Below are positions 5,776-33,455 of a stretch of DNA of 64,000 nt, piece by piece; the first letter of the stretch is position 1; every line of letters starts with the position of its first letter. The position numbers were made by a program, and so were the translations under genes. The stretch is from an uncultured Bacilli bacterium (lineage in GTDB: Bacteria; Bacillota_I; Bacilli_A; RF39; UBA660), in assembly GCA_910585915.1 (NCBI GenBank), contig CAJUGF010000001.1, positions 4,622 through 68,621 on the forward strand, in the 5' to 3' direction. The notes beneath the pieces were generated by a model. The model worked only from the letters and a program-made list of their open reading frames with translations, was not told the origin of the DNA and made no database searches.

Positions 5776-5816
5776 AATAAAAAACAAGCTTAGTTCATCT
5801 GAGCTTGTTTTTCATC
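5776..5816. terminator. Bidirectional intrinsic terminator between convergent ABC-like gene and murC
   Basis: Stem AAACAAGCT / AGCTTGTTT with an 11-nt loop, flanked by an A-run upstream and a T-run downstream. Confidence 0.6.
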
Positions 5817-7187
5817 TTTTAATGTATAACCAATTTGGTTTATTGTCCCTGCACCAATGGTGATGATGATATCATTTTCTTTAATGTTATCTTTTAGGTA
5901 ATTTAATATTTTTTCATAACTATTTAGAAAGATACAGTTTGTATTTTTCTTTTTTATTATAGTTTCCAAATCTTTGGAAGAGATATTATTTTCATTGGTT
6001 TCTCTGGCTGCATAGATCTCAGAAAGAATAATATGATCAAATTGTGATAAAATTTCAGCAAATTCATTTAAATGAGCTGTAGTTCTAGAGTAAGTGTGGG
6101 GTTCAAATATAGCCCAAGTTTCATGATGAGGTATGTCTTGACTACATTTATAAGTTGCTTCAATTTCAGTTGGATGGTGAGCATAATCATCAAAAATAGG
6201 AATATTTTTATATGTTCCAATTTTTTCAAATCGGCGATTTGCTCCTGTAAATTGTAATAGGCCATTTTGAATATTCTTTAAGTTTATTTTATATAAATCA
6301 CAGGTAGCAATTGTAGCTAGAGCATTTTGTATGTTATGAGTACCTAACACATTTAATTCAAAGGTTCCATAAAAATTTTGTTCTTTTAAAACATCAAATT
6401 TCGGAAATCCAAATTTATTTTTTTGAATGTTGATGGCTGTAAATGTAGCTTTGGGATTTTCTATTCCATAAGAAATCAAATTATGTGTTGTGTTTTTGAT
6501 AATATCGTAAGTGTTTTCATCATCAAGATTAGCAATAATTGTACCTGTTTCATTTAATCTTTCTGTAAATTTTTGAAATGATTTTTTGATGTTATCAATG
6601 TTTTGAAAATAATCTAAATGATCGTTATCTATATTTAGGATTATCTCTGTGTGAGGATGAAATTTAAGAAAAGAATCTACATATTCACAAGCTTCTAAAA
6701 TAAAGTATTCACTTTTTCCAGTTTTATTATTTCCTTTTATTTGTTTTAAATAAGCTCCTACTTCAATCGTAGGGTCTAGATTGGCTTCTAAAAAACAGGT
6801 GGCAATCATAGACGTAGTTGTCGTTTTTCCATGTGTTCCACTGATACATATACATTCTTGATAGCACTTGGTAAGTTCCCCTAAAAATTCACTGCGTTCC
6901 ATCATTGGTTTTCCCACTTGTTTTGCATACATGTATTCTTCATCGTTTGCTGGAATAGCAGCTGTATAAACTACTAAATCTGCTTGATCAATTATTTTAT
7001 TCTGATGACCAATCGTGATATTAATTCCTATCTTTTGAAGATGTTTTGTATTCTCGCTTTCTTTCGCATCGCTTCCTGTAATTATAAAGCCGAAATGGGT
7101 TAGGTGTTCTGCAAGACCACTCATACTTACACCACCAATTCCAATCATATGAATTTTATTCCATTGTTTTAAATTGTCTAATGTCAT
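5790..7187 (-). CDS. murC: UDP-N-acetylmuramate--L-alanine ligase
   Basis: N-terminus IHMIGIGGVSMSGLA (Mur ligase Rossmann), GTHGKTTTTSMIA P-loop, overall MurC length. ATG at 7187 is preceded by AAAAGAGGT. Confidence 0.9.
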   Translation of the reverse strand: MTLDNLKQWNKIHMIGIGGVSMSGLAEHLTHFGFIITGSDAKESENTKHLQKIGINITIGHQNKIIDQADLVVYTAAIPANDEEYMYAKQVGKPMMERSEFLGELTKCYQECICISGTHGKTTTTSMIATCFLEANLDPTIEVGAYLKQIKGNNKTGKSEYFILEACEYVDSFLKFHPHTEIILNIDNDHLDYFQNIDNIKKSFQKFTERLNETGTIIANLDDENTYDIIKNTTHNLISYGIENPKATFTAINIQKNKFGFPKFDVLKEQNFYGTFELNVLGTHNIQNALATIATCDLYKINLKNIQNGLLQFTGANRRFEKIGTYKNIPIFDDYAHHPTEIEATYKCSQDIPHHETWAIFEPHTYSRTTAHLNEFAEILSQFDHIILSEIYAARETNENNISSKDLETIIKKKNTNCIFLNSYEKILNYLKDNIKENDIIITIGAGTINQIGYTLKDEKQAQMN

Positions 7188-7335
7188 AAAAAAACCTCTT
7201 TTCACTCATTATTATATCGTATGTCTTGATAATGTAAAAGGCACAATTTTTGTTTTTCTTGGAAGATTGTTTAGAGTTTTAAGATTTAAGCTTTGTGTTT
7301 TTTCTGTCAAATTTGGTATTTTTGTTTTTCTATAC

Positions 7336-7364
7336 TTTACAATCATATTAAAATCATGTACTAT
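7336..7364 (+). promoter_or_regulatory. Candidate sigma-A promoter of the mraZ/dcw operon
   Basis: TTTACA (-35), 17-bp spacer, TACTAT (-10), immediately upstream of the MraZ box array. Confidence 0.45.
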
Positions 7365-7365
7365 A

Positions 7366-7401
7366 GTGGTAGATAGTGGCACAAGGTGGAAGAAAGTGGG
7401 G
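7366..7401 (+). promoter_or_regulatory. MraZ operator: four direct GTGG(G) repeats at exact 10-bp periodicity
   Basis: GTGG at 7366, 7376, 7386 and 7396 (the last is GTGGGG), 9 bp before the mraZ start. This matches the known MraZ binding architecture of direct TGGG-type repeats on a 10-bp period upstream of mraZ. Confidence 0.7.
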
Positions 7402-7408
7402 CAAAGAA

Positions 7409-7843
7409 ATGTTCTTAGGGGAATATCATCATAATATTGATGAGAAAGGGCGTATTGTATTGCCTTCTAAATTTCGTACAGAACTTAAGGATAAATTTAT
7501 CATTGCCCGTGGTCTTGAAAAGTGCTTGTATGTTTATTCTTTAGATGATTGGAATGAACTAGTAAGTAAATTAAATTCTCTACCTTTTACTAAAAAAGAT
7601 GCCAGGGCCTTTGTCCGTTCTTTTTTCTCTGGTGCTACTTTCTGCGAGTTCGATAGTCAAGGAAGAACTTGCATAACCTCCCCACTTGTTAGTTATGCCG
7701 GTTTAACGAAAGAATGTGTTATAATCGGCGCTAACAATCGTATTGAAATATGGGATAAAAGTGCTTGGGAGGAAGTACTTCAATATAGTGAAGATCATTT
7801 ATCTGATATTGCAGAAAACTTATTTATGGATGTGAATGTATGA
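7409..7843 (+). CDS. mraZ: Transcriptional regulator MraZ
   Basis: MFLGEYHHNIDEKGRIVLPSKFR with the duplicated MraZ/SpoVT-AbrB fold; first gene of the dcw cluster. Confidence 0.93.
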   Translation: MFLGEYHHNIDEKGRIVLPSKFRTELKDKFIIARGLEKCLYVYSLDDWNELVSKLNSLPFTKKDARAFVRSFFSGATFCEFDSQGRTCITSPLVSYAGLTKECVIIGANNRIEIWDKSAWEEVLQYSEDHLSDIAENLFMDVNV

Positions 7844-8784
7844 AACATTATTCAGTGTTGAAGATGGAATCATTAGAATACTTAAATATTAAAGAAGATG
7901 GTATTTATGTTGATGCAACGCTTGGATATGCAGGTCATTCTAGTGAAATTTTGAAACGAATTCCAAATGGATATTTATATGCTTTTGATGCGGATATGGA
8001 AGCAATACGATATTCCGATTCTGTATTGAAAGAGATTGGAACAAATTATGAAATTATTCATGCAAATTATGAGGATATGAAAGAGGAACTTTTGAAACGG
8101 GGAGTACAAGTGGTTGATGGAATACTGTTTGATCTTGGTGTATCAAGTCCACAGATTGATTCTATGACAAGAGGTTTTTCTTTTATGAGAGAAGAAATTT
8201 TGGATATGCGGATGGATCAAACACAAGATTTTGATGCAAAGATTCTTTTAAATACGTATTCTTATGAGGCATTACGTGATATTTTCTTTCAATTTGGAGA
8301 AGAAAAGAAGAGCGCTTTGATTGCTAAAAAAATAGTGGATGTAAGAAATAAAAAACGATTTGAAACAACGATAGAGCTTGTAGAAGTAATTAAAGAAGCA
8401 GTTGGAGCAAATTATTTTTATAAAAATCATCCAGAGCGAAAAATTTTTCAAGCAATTCGTATTGAAGTGAATCATGAACTTTCTAGTTTAGAGTGTGTAT
8501 TACCAGATGCAATATCATTACTTAAACAAGGGGGAAGAATTAGTGTTATTACATTTCATTCATTAGAAGATCGTATTACCAAAAAAGTTTTTAAACAATT
8601 TAGTGAAGTAGATGACATGGTAAAAGGGTTACCTGAAATACCATATGAGTATCAACCAATGATTCAGTTGGTTCTTCGTAAACCGCTTTTGCCTAGTGAT
8701 AAAGAAGTTAATGAAAATAGTCGAAGTAAGAGTGCAAAGCTTCGAGTTATTGAAAGGATAAAAGAAAATGAAAAAGAGAAATAA
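7840..8784 (+). CDS. rsmH: 16S rRNA (cytosine1402-N4)-methyltransferase RsmH (MraW)
   Basis: HYSVL ... YVDATLGYAGHS SAM-binding motif; position after mraZ; 4-nt overlap. Confidence 0.93.
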   Translation: MKHYSVLKMESLEYLNIKEDGIYVDATLGYAGHSSEILKRIPNGYLYAFDADMEAIRYSDSVLKEIGTNYEIIHANYEDMKEELLKRGVQVVDGILFDLGVSSPQIDSMTRGFSFMREEILDMRMDQTQDFDAKILLNTYSYEALRDIFFQFGEEKKSALIAKKIVDVRNKKRFETTIELVEVIKEAVGANYFYKNHPERKIFQAIRIEVNHELSSLECVLPDAISLLKQGGRISVITFHSLEDRITKKVFKQFSEVDDMVKGLPEIPYEYQPMIQLVLRKPLLPSDKEVNENSRSKSAKLRVIERIKENEKEK

Positions 8785-9061
8785 TACAGTAAAAATTTTA
8801 AGAGGAGAAAAAATTATTTATGGAATGATTTTTTTATTAATTATTTCTATGCCTATTTGTACAGTACTTACAAAAGCCTTTTTGTCTGAAAGTAATATTC
8901 AAGTAGAACAAATGAAGTCCAAAATTGAAACCCAGACAGATAAAAATGAATCTCTAAGTATGCAGATTGATGAGTTAGCAAGTCTTGATAAAGTACAAGA
9001 AGTTGCAAGTGAAAAAGGATTGAGTTATAATAATGATAATGTTAAAGTAATTACAGAATAG
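8768..9061 (+). CDS. ftsL: Cell division protein FtsL
   Basis: 97 aa, single TM (IIYGMIFLLIISMPICTVL) followed by a coiled-coil; located between rsmH and a PBP. Confidence 0.75.
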   Translation: MKKRNNTVKILRGEKIIYGMIFLLIISMPICTVLTKAFLSESNIQVEQMKSKIETQTDKNESLSMQIDELASLDKVQEVASEKGLSYNNDNVKVITE

Positions 9062-9071
9062 GATCATTTTT

Positions 9072-11192
9072 ATGAAGAAGAGAAAAGGCAGATTTAAAAT
9101 TACAATGAATATCAATTTAAAGATAACATTGCTTGTCTTTTCTTTTTTGTTTTTGTTCATCATTATTAAACTTGCTTATGTTGTTTTAAGTGATAATGTT
9201 GATGGTATTAATTTGACTGAGTTTGCTAATAATCGAAATACTACTAAACAGACTTTGTATGCTTCGCGAGGATCAATTTATGACGTTAACGGAGATGAAC
9301 TTGCTAAAAATGTGAAGTCTTATACGGTCATTGCTTATTTGTCTTCTAGTAGAACAACGAACGAAAAGAAGCCAGAACATGTGGTGGATCCTGAGGGAAC
9401 GGCAAAGGCTTTAGCACCAATTATTCATATGAGTGAAGAAGCCATTTTGAAGTTATTAAGCCAAAAGTTATATCAAGTAGAACTTGGCCCTGGAGGAAGA
9501 GGTATTACTGAAGATACTAAAAAACAAATTGAAGATTTAGAACTTCCAGGGATTAGTTTTATTACTAGTATGAAGCGCTTTTATAAAAATAAGAGTTATG
9601 CTTCTTATTTAGTTGGTTATGCTCGAAGTGATGATAGTGGTGAGATTAAAGGTCAGATGGGGGTTGAATCTTACTATGATGATCTTTTAAAAGGAACAGA
9701 TGGTTATACAGAGTATCAACAAGATGCTGCTGGATATCCAATGCCTAATACACAGATTACAAAAGAAGCAGAAAGTGGAGCAGACATTTATTTGACAATC
9801 AATAATAATATTCAATTAATTTTGGAGAATGTATTAACCAAACTAAAAAATGAGCATAGTTTGGAGTGGGCACAGTTTTCAGTGATGGATGCTAAAACTG
9901 GAGCAATTGTAGGAAGTGCTACCGTTCCTAATTTTGATCTAAATACTTTAAAAGGGATTACTTCTTATTTGAATCCTTTAACAAGTTATCAATATGAACC
10001 TGGTTCAACGATGAAAATATTTTCTTTTATGGCAGCGATTGAAAATGGAATTTATAAGGGCGATGATACTTTTCAGTCAGGGCATATTATTTTGAATGAT
10101 GGAACACGTATTAATGATTTTAATAATGTTGGATGGGGAACTATTAATTATGATACTGGTTTTTCTTACTCTTCTAATGTAGCTGCTACTAAACTTGCTC
10201 TTAATTTAGGTGTTTCAAAGTTAAAAGATTTTTATGAAACTTGTGGTTTTGGAAAGAAAACTGGAATTACTTTACCAAGTGAAAGTATAGGATCTATTAA
10301 TTTTAATTATGAAAGTGAATTAGCTAACGCGAGTTTTGGGCAAGGGATGAGTGTTACACCAATTCAAATGCTACAGGCATTGTCAAGTCTTGTAAATGAT
10401 GGAATTATGATTAAGCCTTATATTGTTTCTAAGGTGGTTAATTCTAAAGGGGAGATCATTCAAAGTGGTCAACGAGAAGAAGTTGGACGAGTTGCTAGTG
10501 TAACTACTATTTCGCGCATGAAGAAAATGATGTATGATGTTGTTTATAATGGTTTTTCTTATAATAAAGGGTATGCTCCTAGCAATGTGACGATTGCTGG
10601 TAAAACAGGTACAGCACAGATTGCTAGTCCAAAAGGTGGCTATTTAACTGGGGAATACGATTATATTAAGAGTTTTGCTGGATTTTTTCCTTATGAAGAT
10701 CCCCAATATGTTTTATATTTTTCAACGAAACAGTTAGTTAGTAGTAGTGCAGATATTATGCAAGTTGTTTCTTCCACAATTGGAGAAATTGCAAAAGTCA
10801 TGAGTATTCAAGATAATAGTAGCGATGAGACTGTTCAAAAAGTGGTTATTATGAATAATTATATTTCTCAACAATTGGATAGTAGTCTTGAGGATTTGAA
10901 AAAATTACAATTAAACCCTATTGTATTAGGAGAAGGTAGTCATGTTATTTCACAGTATCCTAAAGTTGGAAGTAGTGTTTTACAAAAATCTAAGGTGTTT
11001 TTGCTTACTAATGATACAACTTATAAAATGCCAGATGTAATTGGTTGGAGTACGAATGATTTAATTCGTTTTTGTAATATGATTGGTCTTTCTTATCATA
11101 TGAATGGATATGGAAAAGTTGTTAGTACTAATATAGAAGCAGGTAGTATCATTGATTTGAATGTCCCTTTAGAAATTCAACTTGGAATTTAA
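9072..11192 (+). CDS. Class B penicillin-binding protein (FtsI/PBP2B-like transpeptidase) with C-terminal PASTA domains
   Basis: N-terminal TM, PBP dimerisation region, transpeptidase motifs STMK (SxxK) and SSN, KTGT(A) box, and two C-terminal PASTA-like repeats. Confidence 0.88.
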   Translation: MKKRKGRFKITMNINLKITLLVFSFLFLFIIIKLAYVVLSDNVDGINLTEFANNRNTTKQTLYASRGSIYDVNGDELAKNVKSYTVIAYLSSSRTTNEKKPEHVVDPEGTAKALAPIIHMSEEAILKLLSQKLYQVELGPGGRGITEDTKKQIEDLELPGISFITSMKRFYKNKSYASYLVGYARSDDSGEIKGQMGVESYYDDLLKGTDGYTEYQQDAAGYPMPNTQITKEAESGADIYLTINNNIQLILENVLTKLKNEHSLEWAQFSVMDAKTGAIVGSATVPNFDLNTLKGITSYLNPLTSYQYEPGSTMKIFSFMAAIENGIYKGDDTFQSGHIILNDGTRINDFNNVGWGTINYDTGFSYSSNVAATKLALNLGVSKLKDFYETCGFGKKTGITLPSESIGSINFNYESELANASFGQGMSVTPIQMLQALSSLVNDGIMIKPYIVSKVVNSKGEIIQSGQREEVGRVASVTTISRMKKMMYDVVYNGFSYNKGYAPSNVTIAGKTGTAQIASPKGGYLTGEYDYIKSFAGFFPYEDPQYVLYFSTKQLVSSSADIMQVVSSTIGEIAKVMSIQDNSSDETVQKVVIMNNYISQQLDSSLEDLKKLQLNPIVLGEGSHVISQYPKVGSSVLQKSKVFLLTNDTTYKMPDVIGWSTNDLIRFCNMIGLSYHMNGYGKVVSTNIEAGSIIDLNVPLEIQLGI

Positions 11193-11259
11193 GGAATTAT
11201 AATTCTCATCCTAAGAAAAAATAAAATTATACGAATTGGGAAGGAGAAAAGTGATTCTT

Positions 11260-12009
11260 ATGGTAAAACATTTTATTATTATGGGAAGTTCTTATGAAAC
11301 AAAACGAAAAATTGCATTAGATGTAGTTGGAGAAGAACGAGTTTGTGAAAAGGAAGTTCGTTCTATTATGGATTATTTGAAAGAAAATTGTCTTTTAAGT
11401 TCTATTTCTACACATATGATTATTACCGATTCTCCAACTTTTCAATCTGTACAAAATCATGATCATTTTTTTTCTAATGTTAGTCTAATTTCAACAAAAG
11501 AAGAATTTGTTAATCTAATTAATAAAGATCGATATTTAAAAGGAATTGATGTAGCTAATTATATAAAAACACGTATTTCTTGTACTCATTTAAAAATTGA
11601 AAAATTAACTTATCTTTGTTATGCTGATTATCTTTGTGCTTATCATAAGCCTTTATTTCAAGATAAAATATTCGCTTATGCTAAGGGACCAGTGGTACAA
11701 TCCGTTTATCGAAAGTTTAAAGGCATAAAATCTTTATTAAATGTGAGTGAGGATGATAAGAAGGAATATTCTAATAAAAGTGCTTATATGTCTGTACGTA
11801 GTAGAATTATGGTTTCAGAAGATGGATTATATAAATTGGATAGTATTAATAAAACTTTAGAGAAGTATGGCCATTTGAAAGGTCAAGAATTAGTAGAATT
11901 GACACATAGAGTGGATAGTCCATGGGTTTATTCGGGAAGTGGAAAGAAAAAATATCAAAAAATTACAGATGATATTATTTTGAAATATCATTGTAATGAG
12001 ATTCTTTGA
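11260..12009 (+). CDS. Panacea/GepA-like (DUF4065) domain protein, solo; ORF track starts at 11236 (TTG)
   Basis: Core LKIEKLTYLCYADYLCAYHKPLFQDKIFAYAKGPVVQSVYRKFKG closely matches the Panacea/SocA-GepA domain consensus (KLQKLLYyaq ... PLF.d.i.AW.yGPVvpsvY). Flanked by novel N- and C-terminal extensions. RBS GGAAGGAG. Confidence 0.75.
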   Translation: MVKHFIIMGSSYETKRKIALDVVGEERVCEKEVRSIMDYLKENCLLSSISTHMIITDSPTFQSVQNHDHFFSNVSLISTKEEFVNLINKDRYLKGIDVANYIKTRISCTHLKIEKLTYLCYADYLCAYHKPLFQDKIFAYAKGPVVQSVYRKFKGIKSLLNVSEDDKKEYSNKSAYMSVRSRIMVSEDGLYKLDSINKTLEKYGHLKGQELVELTHRVDSPWVYSGSGKKKYQKITDDIILKYHCNEIL

Positions 12010-12104
12010 TATTGTGATGTTGTGTATTTTGAAACTGGAAAAATTATCGCTTAAAGATAATTTTTTTTCTTTTAGTAATAAAAATGTTATAAATTCCATA
12101 ATTT

Positions 12105-12215
12105 GGGCTCGACAAATTTAAAAAATGTGATAAAATAACAACTTAATTAATCATTTTATGGGGGTTGTGATGTATTTTCGACAAATTGCGACAAATGTGG
12201 TGACAAATGTGTGTT
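12105..12215 (+). promoter_or_regulatory. Array of four GACAAAT direct repeats upstream of the polysaccharide locus (candidate transcription-factor binding sites)
   Basis: (C/T)GACAAAT at 12111, 12180, 12190 and 12202; the last three are on a 10-12 bp (helical) period and followed by GTG. They sit in the 290-bp intergenic region before the initiating sugar transferase gene. Confidence 0.5.
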
Positions 12216-12301
12216 AAGTTAATGTTATGATCTGTGAAGTAAAGTAGATTAATGTTATACTTTTATTAAGTTAAAGGGGATTTAAAAGGAGAGGTTGGTT
12301 T

Positions 12302-12979
12302 ATGAATCAAGAAAAGGTTTTAATTGAAAGTACGCATAGTGGAATTGCTACTTTTAAGAAGATTTGTTATGTTTGTAGTAAAAGAACATTTGATGTTTTA
12401 GTGAGTCTGATTGGAATGTTATGGTTACTTCCACTTGCTATTATTATTAAAGTAATTTATGTGTGTACAGGGGATTTTCATAGTATTTTTTATAAGCAAG
12501 AGAGAATTGGCCTTCATGGAAAAACTTTTATGCTTTATAAGTTTCGTACAATGAAACCACATGCAGATGAGTTACTTAAAATTATTCTTGCAAATAATGA
12601 AGATTTGCGTAATGAATATGAAGAAAATAAAAAAATGAAAAATGATCCTCGTATTACGAAAGCTGGTAAAATAATTCGTAAACTTTCTTTGGATGAATTT
12701 CCTCAATTTATTAATATTTTTAAGGGAGATATGAGTTTGGTTGGAAATCGTCCTTATTTACCACGTGAGAAAGAAGATATGGGAAGTTATTATAAATATA
12801 TTATTAAAACAAAACCCGGTCTTACTGGATATTGGCAAGTGAATGGTAGAAGTAATACAACGTTTATTGATCGACTTAGAATGGAGAAAAAGTATAGTAA
12901 TATTCAAAGTTTTGGTTTAGATGTCAAGATCATTTTTAAAACAATGGAACAATTTATTAAACATAATGGAGCTATGTAA
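12302..12979 (+). CDS. Polyprenyl-phosphate sugar phosphotransferase (bacterial sugar transferase, WbaP/CpsE C-terminal domain type)
   Basis: Single N-terminal TM then the Bac_transf domain motifs (KFRTM, DELPQ-like DEFPQFINIFKGDMSLVGNRP, YWQV). RBS AAAGGAGAGG. Confidence 0.88.
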   Translation: MNQEKVLIESTHSGIATFKKICYVCSKRTFDVLVSLIGMLWLLPLAIIIKVIYVCTGDFHSIFYKQERIGLHGKTFMLYKFRTMKPHADELLKIILANNEDLRNEYEENKKMKNDPRITKAGKIIRKLSLDEFPQFINIFKGDMSLVGNRPYLPREKEDMGSYYKYIIKTKPGLTGYWQVNGRSNTTFIDRLRMEKKYSNIQSFGLDVKIIFKTMEQFIKHNGAM

Positions 12980-13054
12980 TTTTATAGCTTTTTTTATTGA
13001 AAAGTTTTGAAAATTTTGGATAGTATGTTAAAATTATATTGGAAGGTAAGTTTT

Positions 13055-14233
13055 ATGAAACACGTTTTTATTATTGGATCTAAAGGTATTCCAGCTAATT
13101 ATGGAGGATATGAAACTTTTGTACATAAATTAACTGAATACCAAAAGAATAAACATCTTAAATTTCATGTAGCATGTGCAGTGGATGATTTGTCTAAACA
13201 TTCAATTGAGTTTGAATTTAATGGAGCGCATTGTTTTAATATTGAATGGCGCAGGCTTGGATCTGCACGAGCTATTTTTTATGATGTGGATGCATTAAAA
13301 TGGGCTATTCAATATGTTAAAGCCAATAAAATAGAAAAACCAATTTTTTATATTTTGGCATGTCGAATGGGGCCATTTATTCATAAATATAAGAAAATTA
13401 TTTCTAGTTTAGGTGGAAAACTTTATGTTAATCCAGATGGTCATGAATGGTTACGAAGTAAATGGAGTTTGCCAGTTAGAAAATATTGGAAGATTTCAGA
13501 AAGTTTAATGATAAAACATGCTGATTTAGTAATATGTGATAGTAAAAATATTGAAGAATATATTCATAAAGAATATAAAAAATATCATCCTAATACAACT
13601 TATATTGCTTATGGTGCAGAAACTTCTCCATCTACTTTATCTGATGATGATAATAAATGGAAGGAATGGCTTAGTAAAAATCAAGTAAAATCTAATCAAT
13701 ATTATTTGATTGTGGGAAGATTTGTACCAGAGAATAATTATGAAACTATGATTAGAGAATTTTGTAATTCAAATATTTCAAAGGATTTGGTTATTATAAC
13801 TGGGGTAAAATCTAATGATAAATTTTTTGATTATTTGAGTCAAACTACAAATTTTCAAAAGGATAAGCGTGTAAAGTTTGTTGGAACAGTTTATGATCAA
13901 GATCTTTTAAAAAAAATTCGTGAAGAAGCTTATGGATATTTGCATGGACATGAGGTTGGAGGTACCAATCCAAGTTTATTAGAAGCTTTAGGTTTAACAA
14001 AGCTAAATCTTTTATTCGATGTCGGTTTTAATCGAGAAGTGGCACTTGATACTGCTTATTATTGGACCAAAGAAAAAAATAATTTATCTAAACTTTTAGA
14101 AAAGTGCGAAAATTTGAGTGCAGCAGAGATCAATGATATTTCTAAATCTGCGAAAAAGATTATTCGGGAAAAATATAGTTGTGAGTACATTAACGAACGA
14201 TATGAAAGGTTGTTTTATGATGGAGAAAAATGA
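13055..14233 (+). CDS. Glycosyltransferase family 4 with DUF1972-type N-terminus (WchF/Cps2T-like rhamnosyl/glycosyl transferase)
   Basis: N-terminus MKHVFIIGSKGIPANYGGYETFV is typical of DUF1972-GT4 enzymes. C-terminal GT4 E..GG..P..LEA-type region (HGHEVGGTNPSLLEA). Confidence 0.75.
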   Translation: MKHVFIIGSKGIPANYGGYETFVHKLTEYQKNKHLKFHVACAVDDLSKHSIEFEFNGAHCFNIEWRRLGSARAIFYDVDALKWAIQYVKANKIEKPIFYILACRMGPFIHKYKKIISSLGGKLYVNPDGHEWLRSKWSLPVRKYWKISESLMIKHADLVICDSKNIEEYIHKEYKKYHPNTTYIAYGAETSPSTLSDDDNKWKEWLSKNQVKSNQYYLIVGRFVPENNYETMIREFCNSNISKDLVIITGVKSNDKFFDYLSQTTNFQKDKRVKFVGTVYDQDLLKKIREEAYGYLHGHEVGGTNPSLLEALGLTKLNLLFDVGFNREVALDTAYYWTKEKNNLSKLLEKCENLSAAEINDISKSAKKIIREKYSCEYINERYERLFYDGEK

Positions 14234-15047
14234 TTTTTTGTTGCAGATTCAGTCTTTAGAACTGGAAGCTTTAAAAGAATTAAAATCGTTTTGTGATAAG
14301 CATCAAATAAAGTTCTTTTTACGTGGTGGTAGTGTTATGGGAGCAATTAAGTATTCAGGATTTGTTCCTTGGGATGATGATGCAGATATTGCTATTCCTA
14401 GAGATCAGTATGATAAGTTAATAAGTCTTTGTCAGACAGAAGAATGGTCCGAAAAATTCTATATTGCCAGTTATCATTATAATTCAGAAATACATTGTTA
14501 TTTCCCAAGAGTTTTAGTTAAAAATGAGGTTTTAGAACAATTGCAATTACCAAAGAATAATCATTTAGGTTTAACCATTATTGATATTTTGCCATTAGAT
14601 GGTGCTCCAAAAAGTCGCTTTGCTCGGGAATTATATTTTTTCAAAGTTTATGTTTTAAGAGCGTTAGCAGGGGTTCATACTCTTAGTATTAAAGAAACTG
14701 TTGATATGCATGATAGCAAAAAAAGACTTGTTTTAAAATTATTAAAATTTTTTCATGTTGATTCTTTGTATTCTCAAGATCAAATATATCATGCTCTTGA
14801 TCGCTTATATAAAAGATATGACTATAAAACTTGCAAACATATAGGTACTCTTACTGGATCTTTGTATAAGAAAGAAATTTTTCCAAGAGATTATTGGGGG
14901 GAAGGCGTTTATCATAAATTTTGTGATACTGAATTTTTAGTTCCAGATGAATATGATAAATATTTGCAACAATTATATGGAAAGGATTATATGACTACTA
15001 TACCAACAGAAGAGAAGATTGCAGCAAAAAAACATATAAAAGAGTAG
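14217..15047 (+). CDS. LicD-family phosphotransferase (phosphocholine/polyol-phosphate transfer to glycopolymers)
   Basis: LRGGSVMGAIKYSGFVPWDDDADIAIPR matches the LicD nucleotidyltransferase-fold DxD motif; overlaps the upstream gene by 17 nt. Confidence 0.8.
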   Translation: MMEKNDFLLQIQSLELEALKELKSFCDKHQIKFFLRGGSVMGAIKYSGFVPWDDDADIAIPRDQYDKLISLCQTEEWSEKFYIASYHYNSEIHCYFPRVLVKNEVLEQLQLPKNNHLGLTIIDILPLDGAPKSRFARELYFFKVYVLRALAGVHTLSIKETVDMHDSKKRLVLKLLKFFHVDSLYSQDQIYHALDRLYKRYDYKTCKHIGTLTGSLYKKEIFPRDYWGEGVYHKFCDTEFLVPDEYDKYLQQLYGKDYMTTIPTEEKIAAKKHIKE

Positions 15048-15059
15048 TATGAGAAATTT

Positions 15060-15935
15060 ATGATAGGGTTTGTTATTTTACATTATATGGCTTATGATGA
15101 AACCATAAAATGTACAGAGAAAATTTTAGAAAATGTGAGAGAAGAAAAAAAAATTGTAATTGTTGATAATGCGTCTAGTAATGGTTCAGGGCAAAAGTTA
15201 AAAGAATATTTTGCTAATAATGATGATGTTATTGTAATTTTACAATCATCTAATTTAGGATTTGCTAAAGGAAATAATATTGGATTTCAATATATAAAGA
15301 GTAATTTTAATTGTGATTATTTAGTGATACTTAATAACGATGTAGAGATATCTGATCAATGTTTTAAAGAAAAATTGGATGATGCTTATCAAAAATATGA
15401 TTTTGATGTTTTGGGACCTGATATTTATTGTACCACTTTAGATGTTCATCAAAGTCCTAAAAGGTTATCTTCTTATACTTACAATGAAGTTGTAAGTGAA
15501 TTAGATAAATATAGAAAAAAATCTCAAAGCAAGTATGTTACTGCATTTAAATGTTATTTGAAGAAAATTCCTTTTTTAAAGAAAATGGTACATGGGAAAA
15601 GACGTGGAAGACAGCAGATTGATTATAATAAAACTTATTTTAATGTTCCATTACATGGCTCTTGTGTTGTTTATTCAAAAAAATTTATAGAAAAAAGATC
15701 CTATGCTTTTTTTGATCAAACTTTTATGTATTTTGAGTTAGAAATATTGGATTATGAATGTCATAGAGATTCTATGAAAACGGTGTATTATCCAGCTATT
15801 AAAGTTTTACATCATCATAATGTTTCAACTAATCTGGCATATAAATCTGAACTTCAAAAAGTTCATTTTATGAATCAATGTATATGTGAATCATTAGAAA
15901 AATTTGTAGAACTAATGGAAAAGGATAGAAATTAA
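15060..15935 (+). CDS. Glycosyltransferase family 2
   Basis: VIVDNASSNGS, LNNDVE (DxD-like) and the GT-A architecture. Confidence 0.8.
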   Translation: MIGFVILHYMAYDETIKCTEKILENVREEKKIVIVDNASSNGSGQKLKEYFANNDDVIVILQSSNLGFAKGNNIGFQYIKSNFNCDYLVILNNDVEISDQCFKEKLDDAYQKYDFDVLGPDIYCTTLDVHQSPKRLSSYTYNEVVSELDKYRKKSQSKYVTAFKCYLKKIPFLKKMVHGKRRGRQQIDYNKTYFNVPLHGSCVVYSKKFIEKRSYAFFDQTFMYFELEILDYECHRDSMKTVYYPAIKVLHHHNVSTNLAYKSELQKVHFMNQCICESLEKFVELMEKDRN

Positions 15936-15949
15936 AAGAGGGTGAATTA

Positions 15950-17293
15950 ATGGAATACTTAGTATTACTGTTTATTACAGAAATTTTCTTTTTAATGATT
16001 TCTTATTTTTCGACTGGGAGAGATATTTTAAGACCTATAAATGTTATGCTTGGAATGTTTTGTTTAAGTACTTTCATTGCGCTTTTGAATGTATTTAATT
16101 GGAATATTGTTTATTCATGGCGCTCTTATTTTATTCTTTCCACAGGGTTATTAGTAGCTTTAATGGCAGATGTTTTTGCTTATAAAAAAAATGATAAGAA
16201 GGCTATTGTTTCAAAAAGAGAGTTAAAAAAAATTGACATTTCTACTTATAAAATTTATTTTATTATTTTGGTTGAATTGGTGATTCTTTTCTTGTATTAT
16301 CGAGAAATAAGACGGCTTGCTATTTTAGATGGTTATGTGGATGGTGCAAACTTATTATGGCATTTTCGAAATATTACTTCTTATACAAGTGAGGAGAGCT
16401 TACGAGGAATTATTAGTTTATTAATTAAATTCATTGATGCTGTTGCTTATGTTTTATCATTTGTTTTGATTAATAATTTATTTTCTAAAAAAATTAAAAA
16501 AAGTGAAGTAGTGCTTTTCTCAATTCCTATTTTATTGTTTGCAGGTAAGGTGTTAATGAGTTCTGCTAGAATGGAATTATTACGTTGGGGAGCTTATTCT
16601 TTTGTTGTAAGTTATATATTGTATAAATATAAAGTTGGATGGGATAAAAATACTACTAAGAGATATGTTACTAAAGGTCTAATTTTAATTCCTGTTGTTT
16701 TATTATTATTTTATTATGCTTCTAGTATTATTGGACGTTCAACAACACGTTCTATGTTTGATTATATATCTACTTATGCAGGTGGTTCTATTCAACATTT
16801 TAATCAATATATTGATTCACCTACCACGACTGAACATTTTGGAGAGGAGACTTTCCCTGCCGTTTATACTATGTTTAAAAGAATCGGATTAACTGATTAT
16901 AGTCGTCCTGTGCATTTGGAAATGCGTCAATTGGGAGTAACTCAGGGCAATGTTTATACTTTTTTTCGCAGACCTTATAATGATTTTGGATATTTTGGAA
17001 TGTTGATTTTTACTTTTATTTTGATTTTTTTCTTTTCTAATGTGTATTCAAAATTTAAGTATAAACACAATAGTTATAGAAATGATTGCGTAATAATTTT
17101 TTACAGTTATTTATTTTATTGGATTGTTCTTTCTTCAGTAGAGCAATATTCAATTGGTTTTGTATCAATGGGTACTGTTTTAACTCTTATTTATTTTCGA
17201 TTATTATATTTCTTTTTTATTCAACTAAAAATACAAAAGTCGAAAATTATTATATATAAAAGCAAAGAGGGGATTTTGAATGAAGGAGAGTAA
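15950..17293 (+). CDS. Polytopic membrane protein, probable Wzy-type polysaccharide polymerase
   Basis: About 10-12 predicted TM helices with one larger loop; its position between the glycosyltransferases and the flippase suggests Wzy. Functional call by context only. Confidence 0.5.
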   Translation: MEYLVLLFITEIFFLMISYFSTGRDILRPINVMLGMFCLSTFIALLNVFNWNIVYSWRSYFILSTGLLVALMADVFAYKKNDKKAIVSKRELKKIDISTYKIYFIILVELVILFLYYREIRRLAILDGYVDGANLLWHFRNITSYTSEESLRGIISLLIKFIDAVAYVLSFVLINNLFSKKIKKSEVVLFSIPILLFAGKVLMSSARMELLRWGAYSFVVSYILYKYKVGWDKNTTKRYVTKGLILIPVVLLLFYYASSIIGRSTTRSMFDYISTYAGGSIQHFNQYIDSPTTTEHFGEETFPAVYTMFKRIGLTDYSRPVHLEMRQLGVTQGNVYTFFRRPYNDFGYFGMLIFTFILIFFFSNVYSKFKYKHNSYRNDCVIIFYSYLFYWIVLSSVEQYSIGFVSMGTVLTLIYFRLLYFFFIQLKIQKSKIIIYKSKEGILNEGE

Positions 17294-18671
17294 ATTAACT
17301 AAAGGTATGCTATATGTTTTAATGGCAAATATTGTGAATTTAATTTTTACATTGGCTACTAATTTTTTACTTCCGAAATATTTGTCTGTTGATACTTATG
17401 CTGCTATTAAAACTTTTCAATTATATGTTACTTATATTGGCTTTTTTCATTTTGGTTTTGTAGATGGAGTTTATTTGAAATTTGGTGGAAAGAATTTAGG
17501 AGCTTTGGATAAAAAAGAAACTATGCGTTCTTTGGCTACTTTGCGTATTTTCCAATTTTTACTTTCATTGTTTTTCATTCTTTTTGCTTTGGTTATTGAT
17601 GATATGATTTTGTTAATGTTTTCATTAGCCATTCTTCCTTTAAATGTAACTTCTTATTTTAAAATGCTTTATCAGTCAGTGGGGGAATTCCAAAAATATA
17701 GTAAGATTACTAATTATGTTGCAGTTTTAACTTTTGTAGTAAATATGATTTTATTATTCTTTTTCCGTAGTGCATCGTTTATGGCTTATTTATTTTGGTA
17801 TGTTTTAATAGATTTGTTTGTTTGGTTTCTTTTAGAATTTAGTTTTTGTAAAGTTTTAAATGAAAAAATTCGTCTATTTTATTTTTCTTTTCAAGAATTC
17901 TTTTCTAATATAAAATCTGGTTTTTCTTTGATGCTTGGAAATTTTGCTTCATTTATTTTAACAGGGCTTGACCGTTGGTTTGTAAAAATATTGATGTCTA
18001 CTATATCATTTGCTCAATATTCGTTTGCTGTGAGTGTCGAAAATATGCTTAACGTGGCTTTGACACCTATCTCTATACCTTTATATAATTATTTTTGTAA
18101 TGAAGATTCCTCTAAAAAAATAAATTTTGTATATCAAGGTATGGTTTTATTTGGGGTAGTTATTGTTTCATCAGCTTTTGTTGTTAAATTTATTCTGGAA
18201 GTATTTTTGACTAATTATTTAGATTCATCTGTCATTATATTTTATTTATTTGCTGCTCAAATATTTCAAATTTTAATTAAGTCTGTGTATGTCAATTTAT
18301 ATAAGGCTAGGAAGCAACAAAAGAAGTATTTTCATCGTTTGTTGTTCGTTGTTTTTTCAGGAATTGTTTTTAATATTGTTTTTTATCTTTTATTAAAAAA
18401 TATTTCAGCTTTTGCCATTGGAACTTTATTTTCTTCTATTTTGTGGTTTCTTTTTTCAAGATGGGATTTTAAAGATATTGGAAATCAATTTCAACTTTTT
18501 CTATTTTTAATTTTAGAAACATTGTTATTTTTATCTTGTGGAATTTTGTTAAATTCTATATGGGGATTTTTATGTTATGTGATAGGTTCTCTTTTCTTTA
18601 GTTTTATTTTTATGGGGGATTATATTATTAACTTATTTAAAATGCTTAAAAGTAAAATTTTGTCAAAATGA
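17280..18671 (+). CDS. Polysaccharide flippase (Wzx / MOP superfamily)
   Basis: 463 aa with about 12-14 TM helices and the Lys-rich N-terminus typical of Wzx; locus context. Confidence 0.6.
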   Translation: MKESKLTKGMLYVLMANIVNLIFTLATNFLLPKYLSVDTYAAIKTFQLYVTYIGFFHFGFVDGVYLKFGGKNLGALDKKETMRSLATLRIFQFLLSLFFILFALVIDDMILLMFSLAILPLNVTSYFKMLYQSVGEFQKYSKITNYVAVLTFVVNMILLFFFRSASFMAYLFWYVLIDLFVWFLLEFSFCKVLNEKIRLFYFSFQEFFSNIKSGFSLMLGNFASFILTGLDRWFVKILMSTISFAQYSFAVSVENMLNVALTPISIPLYNYFCNEDSSKKINFVYQGMVLFGVVIVSSAFVVKFILEVFLTNYLDSSVIIFYLFAAQIFQILIKSVYVNLYKARKQQKKYFHRLLFVVFSGIVFNIVFYLLLKNISAFAIGTLFSSILWFLFSRWDFKDIGNQFQLFLFLILETLLFLSCGILLNSIWGFLCYVIGSLFFSFIFMGDYIINLFKMLKSKILSK

Positions 18672-18758
18672 TTTACATAAAATGTTAATTTTTTATGTAA
18701 TTTTATTTGAAATAGATTATAATCATGATATATTCAATATAGTGTGGAGGGATTTTTA

Positions 18759-19460
18759 ATGGAAGAAATTAATATTGGAGAATTTTTCTCATTTGTTAAG
18801 AAACATTTAATCTTTTTTGTTTCTATGATTTTAATGATTTTAGTTATTTGTATTTTGTATTTTATAGTAATTAAAAAGCCAATATATTCATCTGATGTAT
18901 CTTTAACTTTAACTGGAGTTAATGATTCTCAAGGTAGAGTTACAACCAATGATATTACTTTAAATACAAAAATGTTACCTACCTATCAAGAGGTAATTAC
19001 AAGTCGTAAGGTACTTGATCAAGTAATTAATAATTTAAAGCTTAATAAAACCGTTTCCGAGCTTGTTGGACATATTAAAATTCAAGCTAATACGGATTCG
19101 ATGGTTTTAAATATTACGGTTACGGATGAGAATCGAGTGATTGCTAAAGATATTGCTAATGAAGTGGCTAGTATTTTTGGGGAAGAAATTAAAATTTATG
19201 GTATTACGAGTGTTACTATTTTAGATAAGGCTATTGTAAATGATACACCTATAAATATTAATTATACTAAATCAATTTTGATTAGTTTGTTGGCTGGAAT
19301 ATTTATTTCTTTGGTTTGTTTGTTTATTGTCTTTTATTTAGATACTACGGTAAAAGGTATGGAACAAGTTAATACAAAGTTAGGTCTTGTTGTCTTGGGT
19401 GGAGTTCCACTTCATACAGAAAATACCAAGGGAGTTAGAAAGGGGTTAAAACGTAAATGA
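18759..19460 (+). CDS. Chain-length determinant / BY-kinase modulator (CpsC/YwqC-like Wzz domain)
   Basis: N-terminal TM, periplasmic Wzz-like region, second TM near the C-terminus, basic tail (KGVRKGLKRK); the stop overlaps the start of the kinase gene. Confidence 0.75.
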   Translation: MEEINIGEFFSFVKKHLIFFVSMILMILVICILYFIVIKKPIYSSDVSLTLTGVNDSQGRVTTNDITLNTKMLPTYQEVITSRKVLDQVINNLKLNKTVSELVGHIKIQANTDSMVLNITVTDENRVIAKDIANEVASIFGEEIKIYGITSVTILDKAIVNDTPININYTKSILISLLAGIFISLVCLFIVFYLDTTVKGMEQVNTKLGLVVLGGVPLHTENTKGVRKGLKRK

Positions 19461-20131
19461 AAAATGAATTAATTGTTGATCAAAATCCTAAATCTTCAGT
19501 AGCAGAAGCAATTCGTATTGTTCGTACTAATCTTCAATTTTCTTCAGCAGATAAAGAAGTTAAAACAATTTTAGTAACTTCGTCGATCGCAGGAGAAGGA
19601 AAAAGTTTTATTAGTTCTAATTTGGCTATTGCTTTTGCTCAAAATGGAAAAAAAGTATTATTAATTGATTGTGATTTACGAAGAGGCCGTTTACATCGAA
19701 TTTTTAATCTTGAAAATGATAAAGGGCTTTCTAATCTTTTGATTTCTGATATTCAAGCAAATTTTTCAGGATATTTACAGAAGACTAGAATTAAAAATTT
19801 ATTTTTATTGTCTAGTGGTAGTGTTCCTCCAAATCCTAGTGAACTTTTGGATTCTAAGAAAAATGAAACTCTTATTGAACTTTTAAGTAAAAAGTTTGAT
19901 TATATTATTTTTGATGGAACTCCAGTTGGAGGATTAACTGATTCGGTTATTATGGCTAAATATGTAGATAAGGTAGCTATTGTATGTGCTGTTAATTATA
20001 CAAAGGTTGATCAACTTGTTAATACACAAAAGACTTTAGAGAATATTGAAGCAGATATTGCAGGTGTTATTGTTAATAAGATTCCTGATATGCATAGTAG
20101 TTATTATGGCAATTATTATGTAGAAGATTAA
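19457..20131 (+). CDS. Tyrosine-protein kinase (CpsD/YwqD BY-kinase, P-loop ATPase)
   Basis: Walker A SSIAGEGKSF, Walker A' LLIDCDLRR, and a C-terminal Tyr cluster YYGNYYVED. Confidence 0.88.
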   Translation: MKNELIVDQNPKSSVAEAIRIVRTNLQFSSADKEVKTILVTSSIAGEGKSFISSNLAIAFAQNGKKVLLIDCDLRRGRLHRIFNLENDKGLSNLLISDIQANFSGYLQKTRIKNLFLLSSGSVPPNPSELLDSKKNETLIELLSKKFDYIIFDGTPVGGLTDSVIMAKYVDKVAIVCAVNYTKVDQLVNTQKTLENIEADIAGVIVNKIPDMHSSYYGNYYVED

Positions 20132-20176
20132 TTGAAACTGGATTATAATTTTCAGTTTTTTCTTTTGGAGGATTGT

Positions 20177-20611
20177 ATGAAATATAAACGTGTATTAAAA
20201 TGGATATTTTTATTATTTTGGATGATTCTTATTTTTTCTTTTTCTTCTCAAAATGGTAGTACAAGTTCTTCTGTTTCTAATTTTTTTGTTTCTTTTTTTG
20301 AAAATCATTGTTTTTTGGCAGTTGATTTAGTATTTTTAATACGAAAGGGTGCTCATTTTTTTGAATATTTTATTTTAGGTGTTTTAGTTCTTTTTTTAAT
20401 TCGAGAATATGTTCTACAGGAATGGAGAGCATTATTGTATTCTTTTTGTTGTTGTCTTTTTTATGCTATTAGTGATGAGATTCATCAGCTTTTTGTTGTT
20501 GGAAGAAGTGGAAGAGTTATGGATGTTATTATTGATGGTTGTGGAGCACTTTTAGGAATTTTAATTTTTAGTTTTCTTCTGCTATTGAAAAAAAAGTCAA
20601 GAAAAAATTGA
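20177..20611 (+). CDS. VanZ-family membrane protein
   Basis: 4 TM; GAHFFEY ... DEIHQLFVVGRSGRVMDVIIDGCGALLG matches the VanZ-like signature. Confidence 0.7.
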   Translation: MKYKRVLKWIFLLFWMILIFSFSSQNGSTSSSVSNFFVSFFENHCFLAVDLVFLIRKGAHFFEYFILGVLVLFLIREYVLQEWRALLYSFCCCLFYAISDEIHQLFVVGRSGRVMDVIIDGCGALLGILIFSFLLLLKKKSRKN

Positions 20612-28972: not shown

Positions 28973-29072
28973 CTATAGTTATAATGATTAGATTTTTATG
29001 AGTTTTTTGAAATTTTAGTGTTGCCAAACTAACTGTTCAATGTCATAATAATTTTCGAAGGTGATTTTTAAC

Positions 29073-33390: not shown

Positions 33391-33455
33391 CTTTTTTTCT
33401 TTTTGATAAACAAATGAATATAATTATAGTATAATGTATAAAAGGAGTCGTTAAT

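What the first reader, a model, noticed from the sequence alone, without database searches (positions are those of the whole stretch)
7336..7408. Textbook MraZ operator: four GTGG boxes at exactly 10-bp spacing between the promoter and the mraZ start
GTGGTAGATA-GTGGCACAAG-GTGGAAGAAA-GTGGGG sits directly downstream of a TTTACA-17-TACTAT promoter and 9 bp upstream of the mraZ ATG. This matches the direct-repeat architecture that MraZ dodecamers bind for autorepression in E. coli, B. subtilis and mycoplasmas. It supports the gene start at 7409 rather than the longer ORF in the track. It also shows that Pmra here is MraZ-regulated, which is relevant because the operon now includes a polysaccharide locus and a giant sigma gene.
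Basis: partly seen in the sequence, partly recalled or inferred. Interest (0 to 1): 0.5.

Follow-up and report, generated by a model that had tools for sequence, protein, structure and literature searches.

The report
MraZ operator upstream of mraZ
Four GTGG boxes, one DNA turn apart, lie between a conserved promoter and the mraZ start codon; this is the well-known binding site through which the cell-division regulator MraZ controls its own operon, so the finding is correct but ordinary.

Summary
GTGG occurs at 7366, 7376, 7386 and 7396 (+ strand), 10 bp apart. It lies downstream of TTTACA-17-TACTAT (7336-7364), and 9 nt separate box 4 from the ATG at 7409. The four-box array is unique in the 64 kb window and appeared in none of 100 shuffles. 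The ORF from 7409 is MraZ (Pfam E 4e-43), followed by rsmH, an ftsL-like gene and pbp2B. In 80 related gut Bacilli MAGs (62-91% MraZ identity), boxes 2, 3 and 4 are GTGG in 78, 79 and 80 loci. Box 1 is GTGG in 21 and ATGG in 40. The -35-like TTTAC keeps a fixed distance in 73 of 80, while most spacer and all far-upstream positions drift. The window's MraZ keeps Lys13, Arg15 and Arg86, which contact GTG(G/T) in the M. genitalium cryo-EM complex. The architecture matches published operators, and four-box versions are known in M. genitalium and B. cenocepacia. The 7409 start is supported: the longer ORF begins at the GTG of box 2. That the operon extends through the polysaccharide locus and the giant sigma gene is not shown; a terminator-like hairpin and promoter-like sites lie between. 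This is a known element, correctly read, and of low interest.

The parts
7336..7341 (+). -35-like hexamer TTTACA of Pmra
   Evidence: Sequence and promoter scan. TTTAC(T/A) sits at the same distance, 60 nt before box 4, in 73 of 80 related loci.
7359..7364 (+). -10-like hexamer TACTAT with a 17-nt spacer. An overlapping alternative is TATAGT at 7362-7367 with a 20-nt spacer.
   Evidence: In relatives the hexamer at this position has A at position 2 and T at position 6 in 78 of 80 (commonest TAATAT). The TSS is not mapped. I infer it at about 7370-7375.
7366..7369 (+). MraZ box 1 (GTGG), immediately downstream of the -10-like hexamer and just before the inferred TSS
   Evidence: In relatives it is GTGG in 21 and ATGG in 40 of 80. 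It is GTGG in 6 of the 12 closest sequences (window included) and in 14 of 37 distant ones.
7376..7379 (+). MraZ box 2 (GTGG). Its GTG is the start codon of the 155-aa ORF call, which I consider spurious.
   Evidence: GTGG in 78 of 80 relatives. The ORF list gives 7376..7843 with a GTG start.
7386..7389 (+). MraZ box 3 (GTGG)
   Evidence: GTGG in 79 of 80 relatives.
7396..7401 (+). MraZ box 4 (GTGG), extended to GTGGGG. It probably doubles as the mraZ ribosome-binding site.
   Evidence: GTGG in 80 of 80 relatives; the 10-mer GAAAGTGGGG is identical in 62 of 80. AGAAAGTGGGGGAT resembles the complement of the Bacillota 16S 3' end, AGAAAGGAGGTGAT. That comparison is my inference from general knowledge, not a test.
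7409..7843 (+). mraZ coding sequence (144 aa), the cognate regulator
   Evidence: Pfam MraZ PF02381, E 4.1e-43, protein residues 1-70 matching profile positions 1-71. The alignment to M. genitalium MraZ 9qlr is gapless over the N-terminal ~125 residues (aligned span 1-138), with K13, R15 and R86 conserved. All 80 relatives begin M-[FLY]-[MLI]-G-E-[YF] at the equivalent ATG.
7840..11192 (+). rsmH (7840-8784), ftsL-like gene (8768-9061) and pbp2B (9072-11192): the genes most likely co-transcribed from Pmra
   Evidence: Pfam Methyltransf_5, DivIC (below the curated cut-off) and PBP_dimer/Transpeptidase/PASTA. The genes overlap or are tightly spaced. Co-transcription is inferred.
12037..12075 (+). 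AT-rich 12-bp hairpin followed by a U run: a candidate terminator that would close the mra transcription unit before the polysaccharide locus
   Evidence: RNA fold -18.4 kcal/mol, z = -3.4, 0 of 200 shuffles as stable. The G+C-based terminator scan did not detect it. Suggestive only.

Best explanation
This is the MraZ operator of the mra (dcw) promoter. Four direct GTGG boxes spaced one helical turn apart lie on one face of the DNA, running from just downstream of the -10 hexamer through the first ~30 nt of the transcribed leader. One MraZ subunit binds each box through its beta-strand 'cradle' motif, using Lys13 and Arg15 (first DxxxR motif) and Arg86 (second DxxxR motif). Neighbouring subunits of the MraZ ring cooperate. 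Occupancy over the -10/TSS/early-leader region hinders RNA polymerase, so MraZ represses its own transcription and that of the genes that follow: rsmH, ftsL, pbp2B and probably the SocA-like gene.

Shown here: the boxes, their phase, their conservation, the conserved promoter spacing, the identity of the gene and the conserved contact residues. Inferred from characterised homologues: actual binding, the direction of regulation (repression), the TSS position and the extent of the transcript.
For: - The array is exact and unique in the window.
- The downstream gene is MraZ.
- In 80 related loci, boxes 2, 3 and 4 are GTGG in 78, 79 and 80. Information content is 1.5-2.0 bits at box positions, against 0.4-1.0 across spacer 2 and 0-0.4 upstream of -62. 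Spacer 2 has 42 distinct hexamers. The distance to the -35-like TTTAC is fixed in 73 of 80.
- K13, R15 and R86 are retained in an alignment to the solved M. genitalium MraZ that is gapless over these positions.
- Most relatives keep both DxxxR motifs: the ten commonest motif pairs, covering 65 of 80 loci, all keep the first and 60 of those keep the second in register.
- Published operators have the same anatomy. Usually there are three GTG(G/T) boxes with 6-nt spacers. M. genitalium has four, with four subunits bound and the TSS inside box 1, and mutating the boxes stepwise reduces binding and repression (PMC12957436).
- In B. subtilis there are three GTGG[A/T]G boxes with 4-nt spacers. They are required for repression, and R15A or R86A abolishes it (bioRxiv 10.1101/2022.02.09.479790).
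- In Mollicutes the site is a series of AAAGTG[T/G] repeats, and an mraZ deletion in M. genitalium de-represses the cluster (PMC8475190).
- In B. cenocepacia there are four repeats downstream of the -10 that overlap the TSS (PMC7761207).
Against: - There is no binding or expression data for this organism, which is an uncultured MAG.
- The TSS is only predicted, and the promoter hexamers alone are at chance level.
- Box 1 abuts the -10 hexamer and box 4 overlaps the Shine-Dalgarno region, so part of their conservation may have other causes.
- Spacers 1 and 3 are also fairly conserved (15 and 10 distinct hexamers).
- MraZ was reported as an activator on overexpression in M. gallisepticum (cited), so the sign of regulation is not guaranteed.
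Confidence: 0.9

Rival explanations
1. The same boxes bind MraZ, but MraZ activates Pmra here, or acts in both directions depending on dose.
For: M. gallisepticum MraZ was reported to act as an activator on overexpression (summarised in PMC12957436).
Against: The boxes lie from the -10 hexamer into the leader, not upstream of the -35, which is a repressor position. Repression was shown in E. coli, B. subtilis and M. genitalium, whose boxes are similarly placed.
Confidence: 0.06
2. The conserved G-rich periodic sequence is constrained by core promoter, leader and ribosome-binding functions (discriminator/TSS region, Shine-Dalgarno) and not by a DNA-binding protein.
For: Box 1 abuts the conserved -10-like hexamer and overlaps an alternative one. 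Box 4 with its flanks, GAAAGTGGGGGAT, resembles a Shine-Dalgarno sequence and is the most conserved unit (62 of 80 identical 10-mers). Spacers 1 and 3 are also conserved.
Against: Boxes 2 and 3 overlap neither element, yet are GTGG in 78-79 of 80 with a variable spacer between them (42 distinct hexamers). The exact 10-bp register and the identity of the tetramer with the experimentally defined MraZ box are not predicted by this view.
Confidence: 0.03
3. The G-tracts form a G-quadruplex in DNA or in the leader RNA that modulates mraZ expression, as proposed for the G-rich region downstream of PmraZ in S. aureus.
For: A G4 in the S. aureus mraZ promoter region was reported, with conserved G4-forming motifs claimed in other species (PMC11796246). 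The best 25-nt G4Hunter window here scores 1.28.
Against: Three of the four tracts are only GG, and the loops are 8 nt long. The mean G4Hunter score over 7366-7401 is 0.97, and 68 other 25-nt windows in this AT-rich sequence reach 1.2 or more. What is conserved is the tetramer GTGG including the T, not just the G runs.
Confidence: 0.02
4. Chance occurrence of GTGG repeats in a purine-rich leader.
For: GTGG is 5-fold commoner on the + strand than on the - strand (186 against 37).
Against: None of 100 shuffles gave even three boxes in register. The array is conserved in 80 relatives.
Confidence: 0.001

Closest known systems
M. genitalium MraZ four-box operator (AAAGTGT-N3 x3 + AAAGTGG; cryo-EM complexes, PDB 9qlr and related; PMC12957436)
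   Same: Four direct GTG(G/T) boxes at a 10-bp period with A-rich 5' flanks (the window has ATAGTGG, ATAGTGG, AAGGTGG, AAAGTGG). They lie immediately upstream of mraZ. The TSS is at or next to box 1. The K13/R15/R86 contact residues are identical in number and position.
   Different: The boxes here are all GTGG, not mostly GTGT. The host is a walled organism with pbp, mur and ftsW genes in the cluster. The window MraZ matches the M. genitalium protein only at E 5.6e-24, so it is a distant orthologue. Binding has not been tested.
B. subtilis MraZ-binding repeats (three GTGG[A/T]G boxes with 4-nt spacers; Firmicutes consensus GTGGNNNNNAGTGGNGNNNNGTGG; White et al., bioRxiv 10.1101/2022.02.09.479790)
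   Same: GTGG core, 10-bp period, position in Pmra, a single site in the sequence examined, and the following gene order mraZ-rsmH(mraW)-ftsL-pbpB.
   Different: Four perfect boxes here against three. Positions 5-6 of the hexamer are not [A/T]G here, except in box 4 (GTGGGG).
B. cenocepacia PmraBc MraZ site (four 7-nt repeats with 3-nt spacers, downstream of the -10, overlapping the TSS; PMC7761207), and the E. coli Pmra boxes (Eraso et al. 2014, known to me only through citations)
   Same: Four repeats, 10-bp period, and a position downstream of the -10 box overlapping the TSS.
   Different: These are Proteobacteria with a long leader (TSS 100 bp upstream of mraZ in B. cenocepacia). Here the inferred leader is about 35-40 nt, and the last box overlaps the ribosome-binding site.

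Membership tests
MraZ operator (MraZ boxes / MraZ-binding repeats) | Three or more direct repeats with a GTG(G/T) core | tested here: met
   Four GTGG boxes at 7366, 7376, 7386 and 7396. Definition taken from PMC12957436 and White et al..
MraZ operator (MraZ boxes / MraZ-binding repeats) | Boxes separated by 6 nt (10-bp period, same face of the helix) | tested here: met
   The spacing is exactly 10 bp three times. With loci anchored on box 4, GTGG sits 10 bp upstream in 79 of 80 relatives and 20 bp upstream in 78 of 80.
MraZ operator (MraZ boxes / MraZ-binding repeats) | Located directly upstream of mraZ, at or downstream of the Pmra -10 and around the TSS | tested here: inconclusive
   The position relative to mraZ is met, with 9 nt between box 4 and the ATG. 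The promoter is predicted only, from TTTACA-17-TACTAT with hexamers and spacing conserved in relatives. The TSS is not mapped.
MraZ operator (MraZ boxes / MraZ-binding repeats) | A cognate MraZ with two DxxxR motifs and the base-contacting residues Lys13, Arg15 and Arg86 | tested here: met
   D11-E-K13-G-R15 and D82-S-Q-G-R86 in the window protein. The alignment to 9qlr is gapless over these positions. Pfam MraZ E 4e-43.
MraZ operator (MraZ boxes / MraZ-binding repeats) | Evolutionary conservation of the boxes against variable neighbouring sequence | tested here: met
   80 loci with 62-91% MraZ identity. Box positions carry 1.5-2.0 bits. Spacer 2 has 42 distinct hexamers. Sequence upstream of the -35 carries 0-0.4 bits.
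MraZ operator (MraZ boxes / MraZ-binding repeats) | Specific binding by MraZ, and box-dependent repression of Pmra | not testable with these tools
   Requires EMSA or footprinting and reporter assays.
Promoter G-quadruplex (as claimed for S. aureus PmraZ) | Four or more G-tracts able to stack at least two, and usually three, tetrads with short loops; G4Hunter above about 1.2-1.5 | tested here: inconclusive
   The tracts are GG, GG, GG and GGGG with 8-nt loops. Mean G4Hunter is 0.97 and the best 25-nt window scores 1.28. This is marginal, and folding was not tested.

The most novel reading that the evidence does not exclude
Transcription from the MraZ-controlled Pmra reads through the weak AT-rich hairpin at 12037-12075 into the capsule-like polysaccharide locus inserted in the dcw cluster, and on to the 1339-aa sigma-70-family gene. 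MraZ would then couple surface-polysaccharide synthesis and a sigma factor to cell division in this lineage. A smaller variant: the promoter-proximal box switches between ATGG and GTGG in different clades, as an evolutionary dial on the strength of autorepression.
Probability: 0.1. Interest if true: 0.4.

Novelty: already known. Interest (0 to 1): 0.12.

Why it matters
The main value is for annotation.

- It fixes the mraZ start at 7409. Public gene calls for this sequence use the 155-aa GTG start, which is simply the GTG of operator box 2. In 35 of the 81 sequences examined (80 loci plus the window), the farthest in-frame upstream start codon lies 11 codons upstream, as in the window, so the same miscall is likely in them.
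- It marks Pmra and its likely autoregulation in an uncultured gut Bacilli lineage.
- It adds 80 natural sequence variants of the operator, showing which positions tolerate change. Boxes 2-4 are invariant and box 1 is A/G at its first base. The last box is fused to the ribosome-binding site.
- It does not open a new question.

Tried and rejected
- I looked for further MraZ sites in the window that could tie the polysaccharide locus or the sigma gene to MraZ. There is no second GTGG-N6-GTGG pair and no further GTGK triple, even with one mismatch allowed.
- I looked up the 144-aa protein by exact sequence and it was not on record. The 155-aa form is on record in 6 contigs, including GCA_949518705.1. 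This shows the start miscall rather than an absence of the gene.
- I tried to read Eraso et al. 2014 (PMC4010979) for the E. coli box sequence, but the paper is not held. E. coli details are therefore cited only second-hand.
- I considered a G-quadruplex reading and found it marginal.
- I considered a leader RNA structure. The fold of 7366-7420 is not distinguishable from shuffles (z = -1.5).
- I checked whether the divergent murC is a conserved partner. Only 5 loci have it upstream, out of 56 with more than 1.5 kb of upstream sequence, so there is no evidence for shared regulation. The murC promoter-like site (7238 to 7211, - strand) lies more than 120 bp from the boxes.
- G+C-based terminator scans of 7400-40000 were not above shuffles and gave no intergenic hit.
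- I did not use the large protein-database searches or structure prediction. The match to solved MraZ structures made them unnecessary.

Full report
**Observation.** TTTACA is at 7336-7341, followed by a 17-nt spacer and TACTAT at 7359-7364. GTGG is at 7366, 7376, 7386 and 7396, and the last box continues as GTGGGG to 7401. The ATG is at 7409.

The four-box pattern occurs once in the 64 kb window on both strands, and in none of 100 dinucleotide-preserving shuffles. The same holds for three boxes in register. Even the two-box pattern GTGG-N6-GTGG occurs nowhere else in the window. GTGG occurs 186 times on the + strand, so I estimate about 1e-5 chance four-box arrays per window.

The promoter hexamers alone match 9 of 12 consensus positions. 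That is no better than chance for this AT-rich region, which held 6 sites against 5.4 in shuffles. The promoter call therefore has to rest on conservation.

**What surrounds it.** The ORF from 7409 is MraZ (Pfam PF02381, E 4.1e-43), and the profile starts at residue 1 of the protein. It is followed by:

- rsmH/mraW (7840-8784);
- a small DivIC/FtsL-like gene (8768-9061);
- a class B PBP with PASTA domains (9072-11192);
- a SocA/Panacea-domain gene (11236-12009).

Upstream and divergent is murC (5790-7205, - strand). It has its own strong promoter-like site, TTTACA-16-TATAAT at 7238 to 7211.

**Comparative evidence.** A scan of one genome per species returned 80 loci encoding MraZ at 62-91% identity. 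All are gut 'Bacilli', 'Tenericutes' or 'Erysipelotrichaceae' MAGs. I anchored the sequences upstream of mraZ on the last GTGG before the ATG. The results were:

- Box 4 is GTGG in 80 of 80, box 3 in 79 and box 2 in 78.
- Box 1 is GTGG in 21 and ATGG in 40.
- Information content is 1.5-2.0 bits at box positions and 0-0.4 bits upstream of the -35.
- Spacer 2 has 42 distinct hexamers. Spacers 1 and 3 are more constrained, with 15 and 10 distinct hexamers.
- A -35-like TTTAC(T/A) sits exactly 60 nt before box 4 in 73 of 80.
- The hexamer 17 nt downstream of it has the critical A2 and T6 in 78 of 80 (commonest TAATAT).

A second -10 reading is possible: TATAAT in relatives, TATAGT at 7362-7367 here. 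It would need a 20-nt spacer, so I prefer the 17-nt one. Either way, box 1 lies between the -10 and the inferred TSS (about 7370-7375), and boxes 2-4 lie in the first ~30 nt of a leader of about 35-40 nt.

**The regulator.** The window MraZ aligns with the solved M. genitalium MraZ (9qlr, E 5.6e-24) and M. pneumoniae MraZ (1n0e, E 6.6e-26) over residues 1-138, without gaps over the N-terminal ~125 residues. Lys13, Arg15 and Arg86 are present at identical positions, in D11-E-K-G-R15 and D82-S-Q-G-R86. Most relatives keep both DxxxR motifs: among the ten commonest motif pairs, which cover 65 of 80 loci, all keep the first and 60 keep the second in register.

**What is known.** The literature read here describes the same element in several organisms.

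- Sanchez-Alba et al. [quoted passage not shown]
- M. genitalium has four boxes (AAAGTGT-N3 three times, then AAAGTGG).
- Their cryo-EM structures show four subunits of an opened octamer ring, each inserting its beta-strand 'cradle' into the major groove of one box. Lys13, Arg15 and Arg86 contact the GTG(T/G) bases.
- In the same work the TSS lies inside box 1, and mutating the boxes stepwise reduces binding and repression.
- In B. subtilis three GTGG[A/T]G boxes with 4-nt spacers are required for repression of the mra operon. R15A or R86A abolishes it, and the triple repeat is unique in the genome (bioRxiv 10.1101/2022.02.09.479790).
- In Mollicutes the site is a series of AAAGTG[T/G] repeats, and deleting mraZ in M. 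genitalium de-represses the cluster (PMC8475190).
- In B. cenocepacia four 7-nt repeats with 3-nt spacers lie downstream of the -10 box, 'as in E. coli', and overlap the TSS (PMC7761207).

The window's element matches every sequence-level criterion of this family, including A-rich 5' flanks (ATAGTGG, ATAGTGG, AAGGTGG, AAAGTGG).

**Mechanism.** MraZ subunits most likely bind the four boxes cooperatively on one face of the DNA and block RNA polymerase at the -10/TSS/early-leader region. This would give negative autoregulation of mraZ-rsmH-ftsL-pbp2B. I put confidence in the element being an MraZ operator that works this way at about 0.9.

- Binding, the sign of regulation and the TSS are inferred from homologues. 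Everything else is shown by sequence.
- Activation, as reported for M. gallisepticum on overexpression, is the main functional rival. The position of the boxes argues against it.

**Two refinements to 'textbook four boxes'.**

1. The family-wide core is three boxes (2-4). The promoter-proximal box is a perfect GTGG only in part of the family: 6 of the 12 closest sequences (the window among them) and 14 of 37 distant ones. It is ATGG elsewhere. It may be a weaker site whose strength varies between clades.
2. Box 4 with its flanks, AGAAAGTGGGGGAT in the family consensus and AGAAAGTGGGGCAA here, resembles the complement of the Bacillota 16S 3' end. It sits 7-9 nt from the ATG, so it probably doubles as the Shine-Dalgarno sequence. 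This would explain why it is the most conserved unit, with 62 of 80 identical 10-mers. This second point is my inference.

**Gene start.** The 155-aa ORF begins at the GTG of box 2 (7376). Several lines favour the ATG at 7409:

- The Pfam profile and the solved homologues both begin at the corresponding methionine.
- All 80 relatives start M-[FLY]-[MLI]-G-E-[YF] there.
- The distance from box 4 to the ATG varies from 8 to 13 nt, so the upstream frame is not conserved.
- 22 of 81 sequences have no in-frame alternative start before a stop codon.
- The Shine-Dalgarno-like sequence serves 7409.
- GTG 7376 would lie only about 1-6 nt from the inferred TSS.

Public gene calls nevertheless use the 155-aa form. 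It is found on 6 contigs, including GCA_949518705.1, while the 144-aa form is not on record.

**Operon remark.** After pbp2B and the SocA-like gene comes a capsule-like locus (12302-22330) encoding:

- a Bac_transf sugar transferase;
- a DUF1972/GT1 glycosyltransferase;
- LicD;
- a GT2 glycosyltransferase;
- two proteins with no Pfam match;
- Wzz;
- a CpsD-like ATPase;
- VanZ;
- a LytR-CpsA-Psr protein.

Next come a second PBP, mraY, two unknown genes and ftsW. A 1339-aa protein with sigma-70 regions 1.2-4 follows, then murG, murB and ftsQ/divIB.

Co-transcription from Pmra is not shown, and three observations weigh against it:

- A 12-bp AT-rich hairpin followed by a U run sits just after the SocA-like gene (12037-12075; z = -3.4).
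- The 293-nt gap that follows carries a promoter-like site with a TG motif (12109-12136) and four (C/T)GACAAAT repeats.
- Promoter-like sites also precede the sigma gene (29021-29049) and murG (33403-33435).

There are no further MraZ boxes in the window.

**Rivals.**

- A G-quadruplex, as claimed for the G-rich region of S. aureus PmraZ (PMC11796246), is marginal here. Three tracts are only GG, the loops are 8 nt, and the mean G4Hunter score is 0.97. The conserved unit includes the T.
- A pure promoter/leader/ribosome-binding-site constraint cannot explain boxes 2 and 3.
- Chance is excluded.

**Verdict.** The element is a standard, already described regulatory site in an orthologous position. 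Interest is low (0.12). Its practical value is a corrected start codon and a set of natural operator variants.

Noticed in passing
window 12110-12215 (+): Four copies of (C/T)GACAAAT(T/G), at 12110, 12180, 12190 and 12202, lie in the 293-nt gap upstream of the polysaccharide locus. A promoter-like TCGACA-16-TAAAAT with a TG motif sits next to them (12109-12136). This may be a binding site for a regulator of that locus.
   Followed up: no
window 12037-12075 (+): An AT-rich 12-bp hairpin (GGAAAAAUUAUC / GAUAAUUUUUUU) followed by UCUUUU lies directly after the SocA/Panacea-like gene. Fold z = -3.4. The G+C-based terminator scan missed it. It is a candidate terminator that would separate the mra genes from the polysaccharide locus.
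   Followed up: partly
window 11236-22330 (+): The dcw cluster is interrupted between pbp2B and the second PBP/mraY. The insert is a SocA/Panacea-domain gene followed by a ~10-kb capsule-like locus (Bac_transf, DUF1972/GT1, LicD, GT2, two proteins with no Pfam match, Wzz, CpsD-like ATPase, VanZ, LytR-CpsA-Psr).
   Followed up: partly
window 29061-33080 (+): A 1339-aa ORF lies between ftsW and murG. It has sigma-70 regions 1.2, 2, 3 and 4 at residues 170-419, then a C-terminal extension of about 900 aa that has only a weak second region-4-like match at residues 661-683.
   Followed up: no
window 7376-7843 (+); loci L081-L084: Public gene calls for this sequence record MraZ as 155 aa starting at GTG 7376, which is the GTG of operator box 2. 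In 35 of the 81 sequences examined (80 loci plus the window), the farthest in-frame upstream start codon lies 11 codons upstream, as here, so the same start miscall is likely widespread.
   Followed up: yes
window 7211-7238 (-) and 7187-7205 (-): The divergent murC has a near-consensus promoter-like site (TTTACA-16-TATAAT, 11 of 12). Its real start is probably the ATG at 7187 (protein MTLDNL...), preceded by AAGAGG, not the GTG at 7205. Only 5 loci have murC divergently upstream of mraZ, out of 56 with more than 1.5 kb of upstream sequence.
   Followed up: partly
whole window: There is strong strand asymmetry. GTGG occurs 186 times on the + strand and 37 times on the - strand, and nearly all ORFs of at least 120 aa from 7376 to 36752 are on the + strand. 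G+C content is 29.5%.
   Followed up: no
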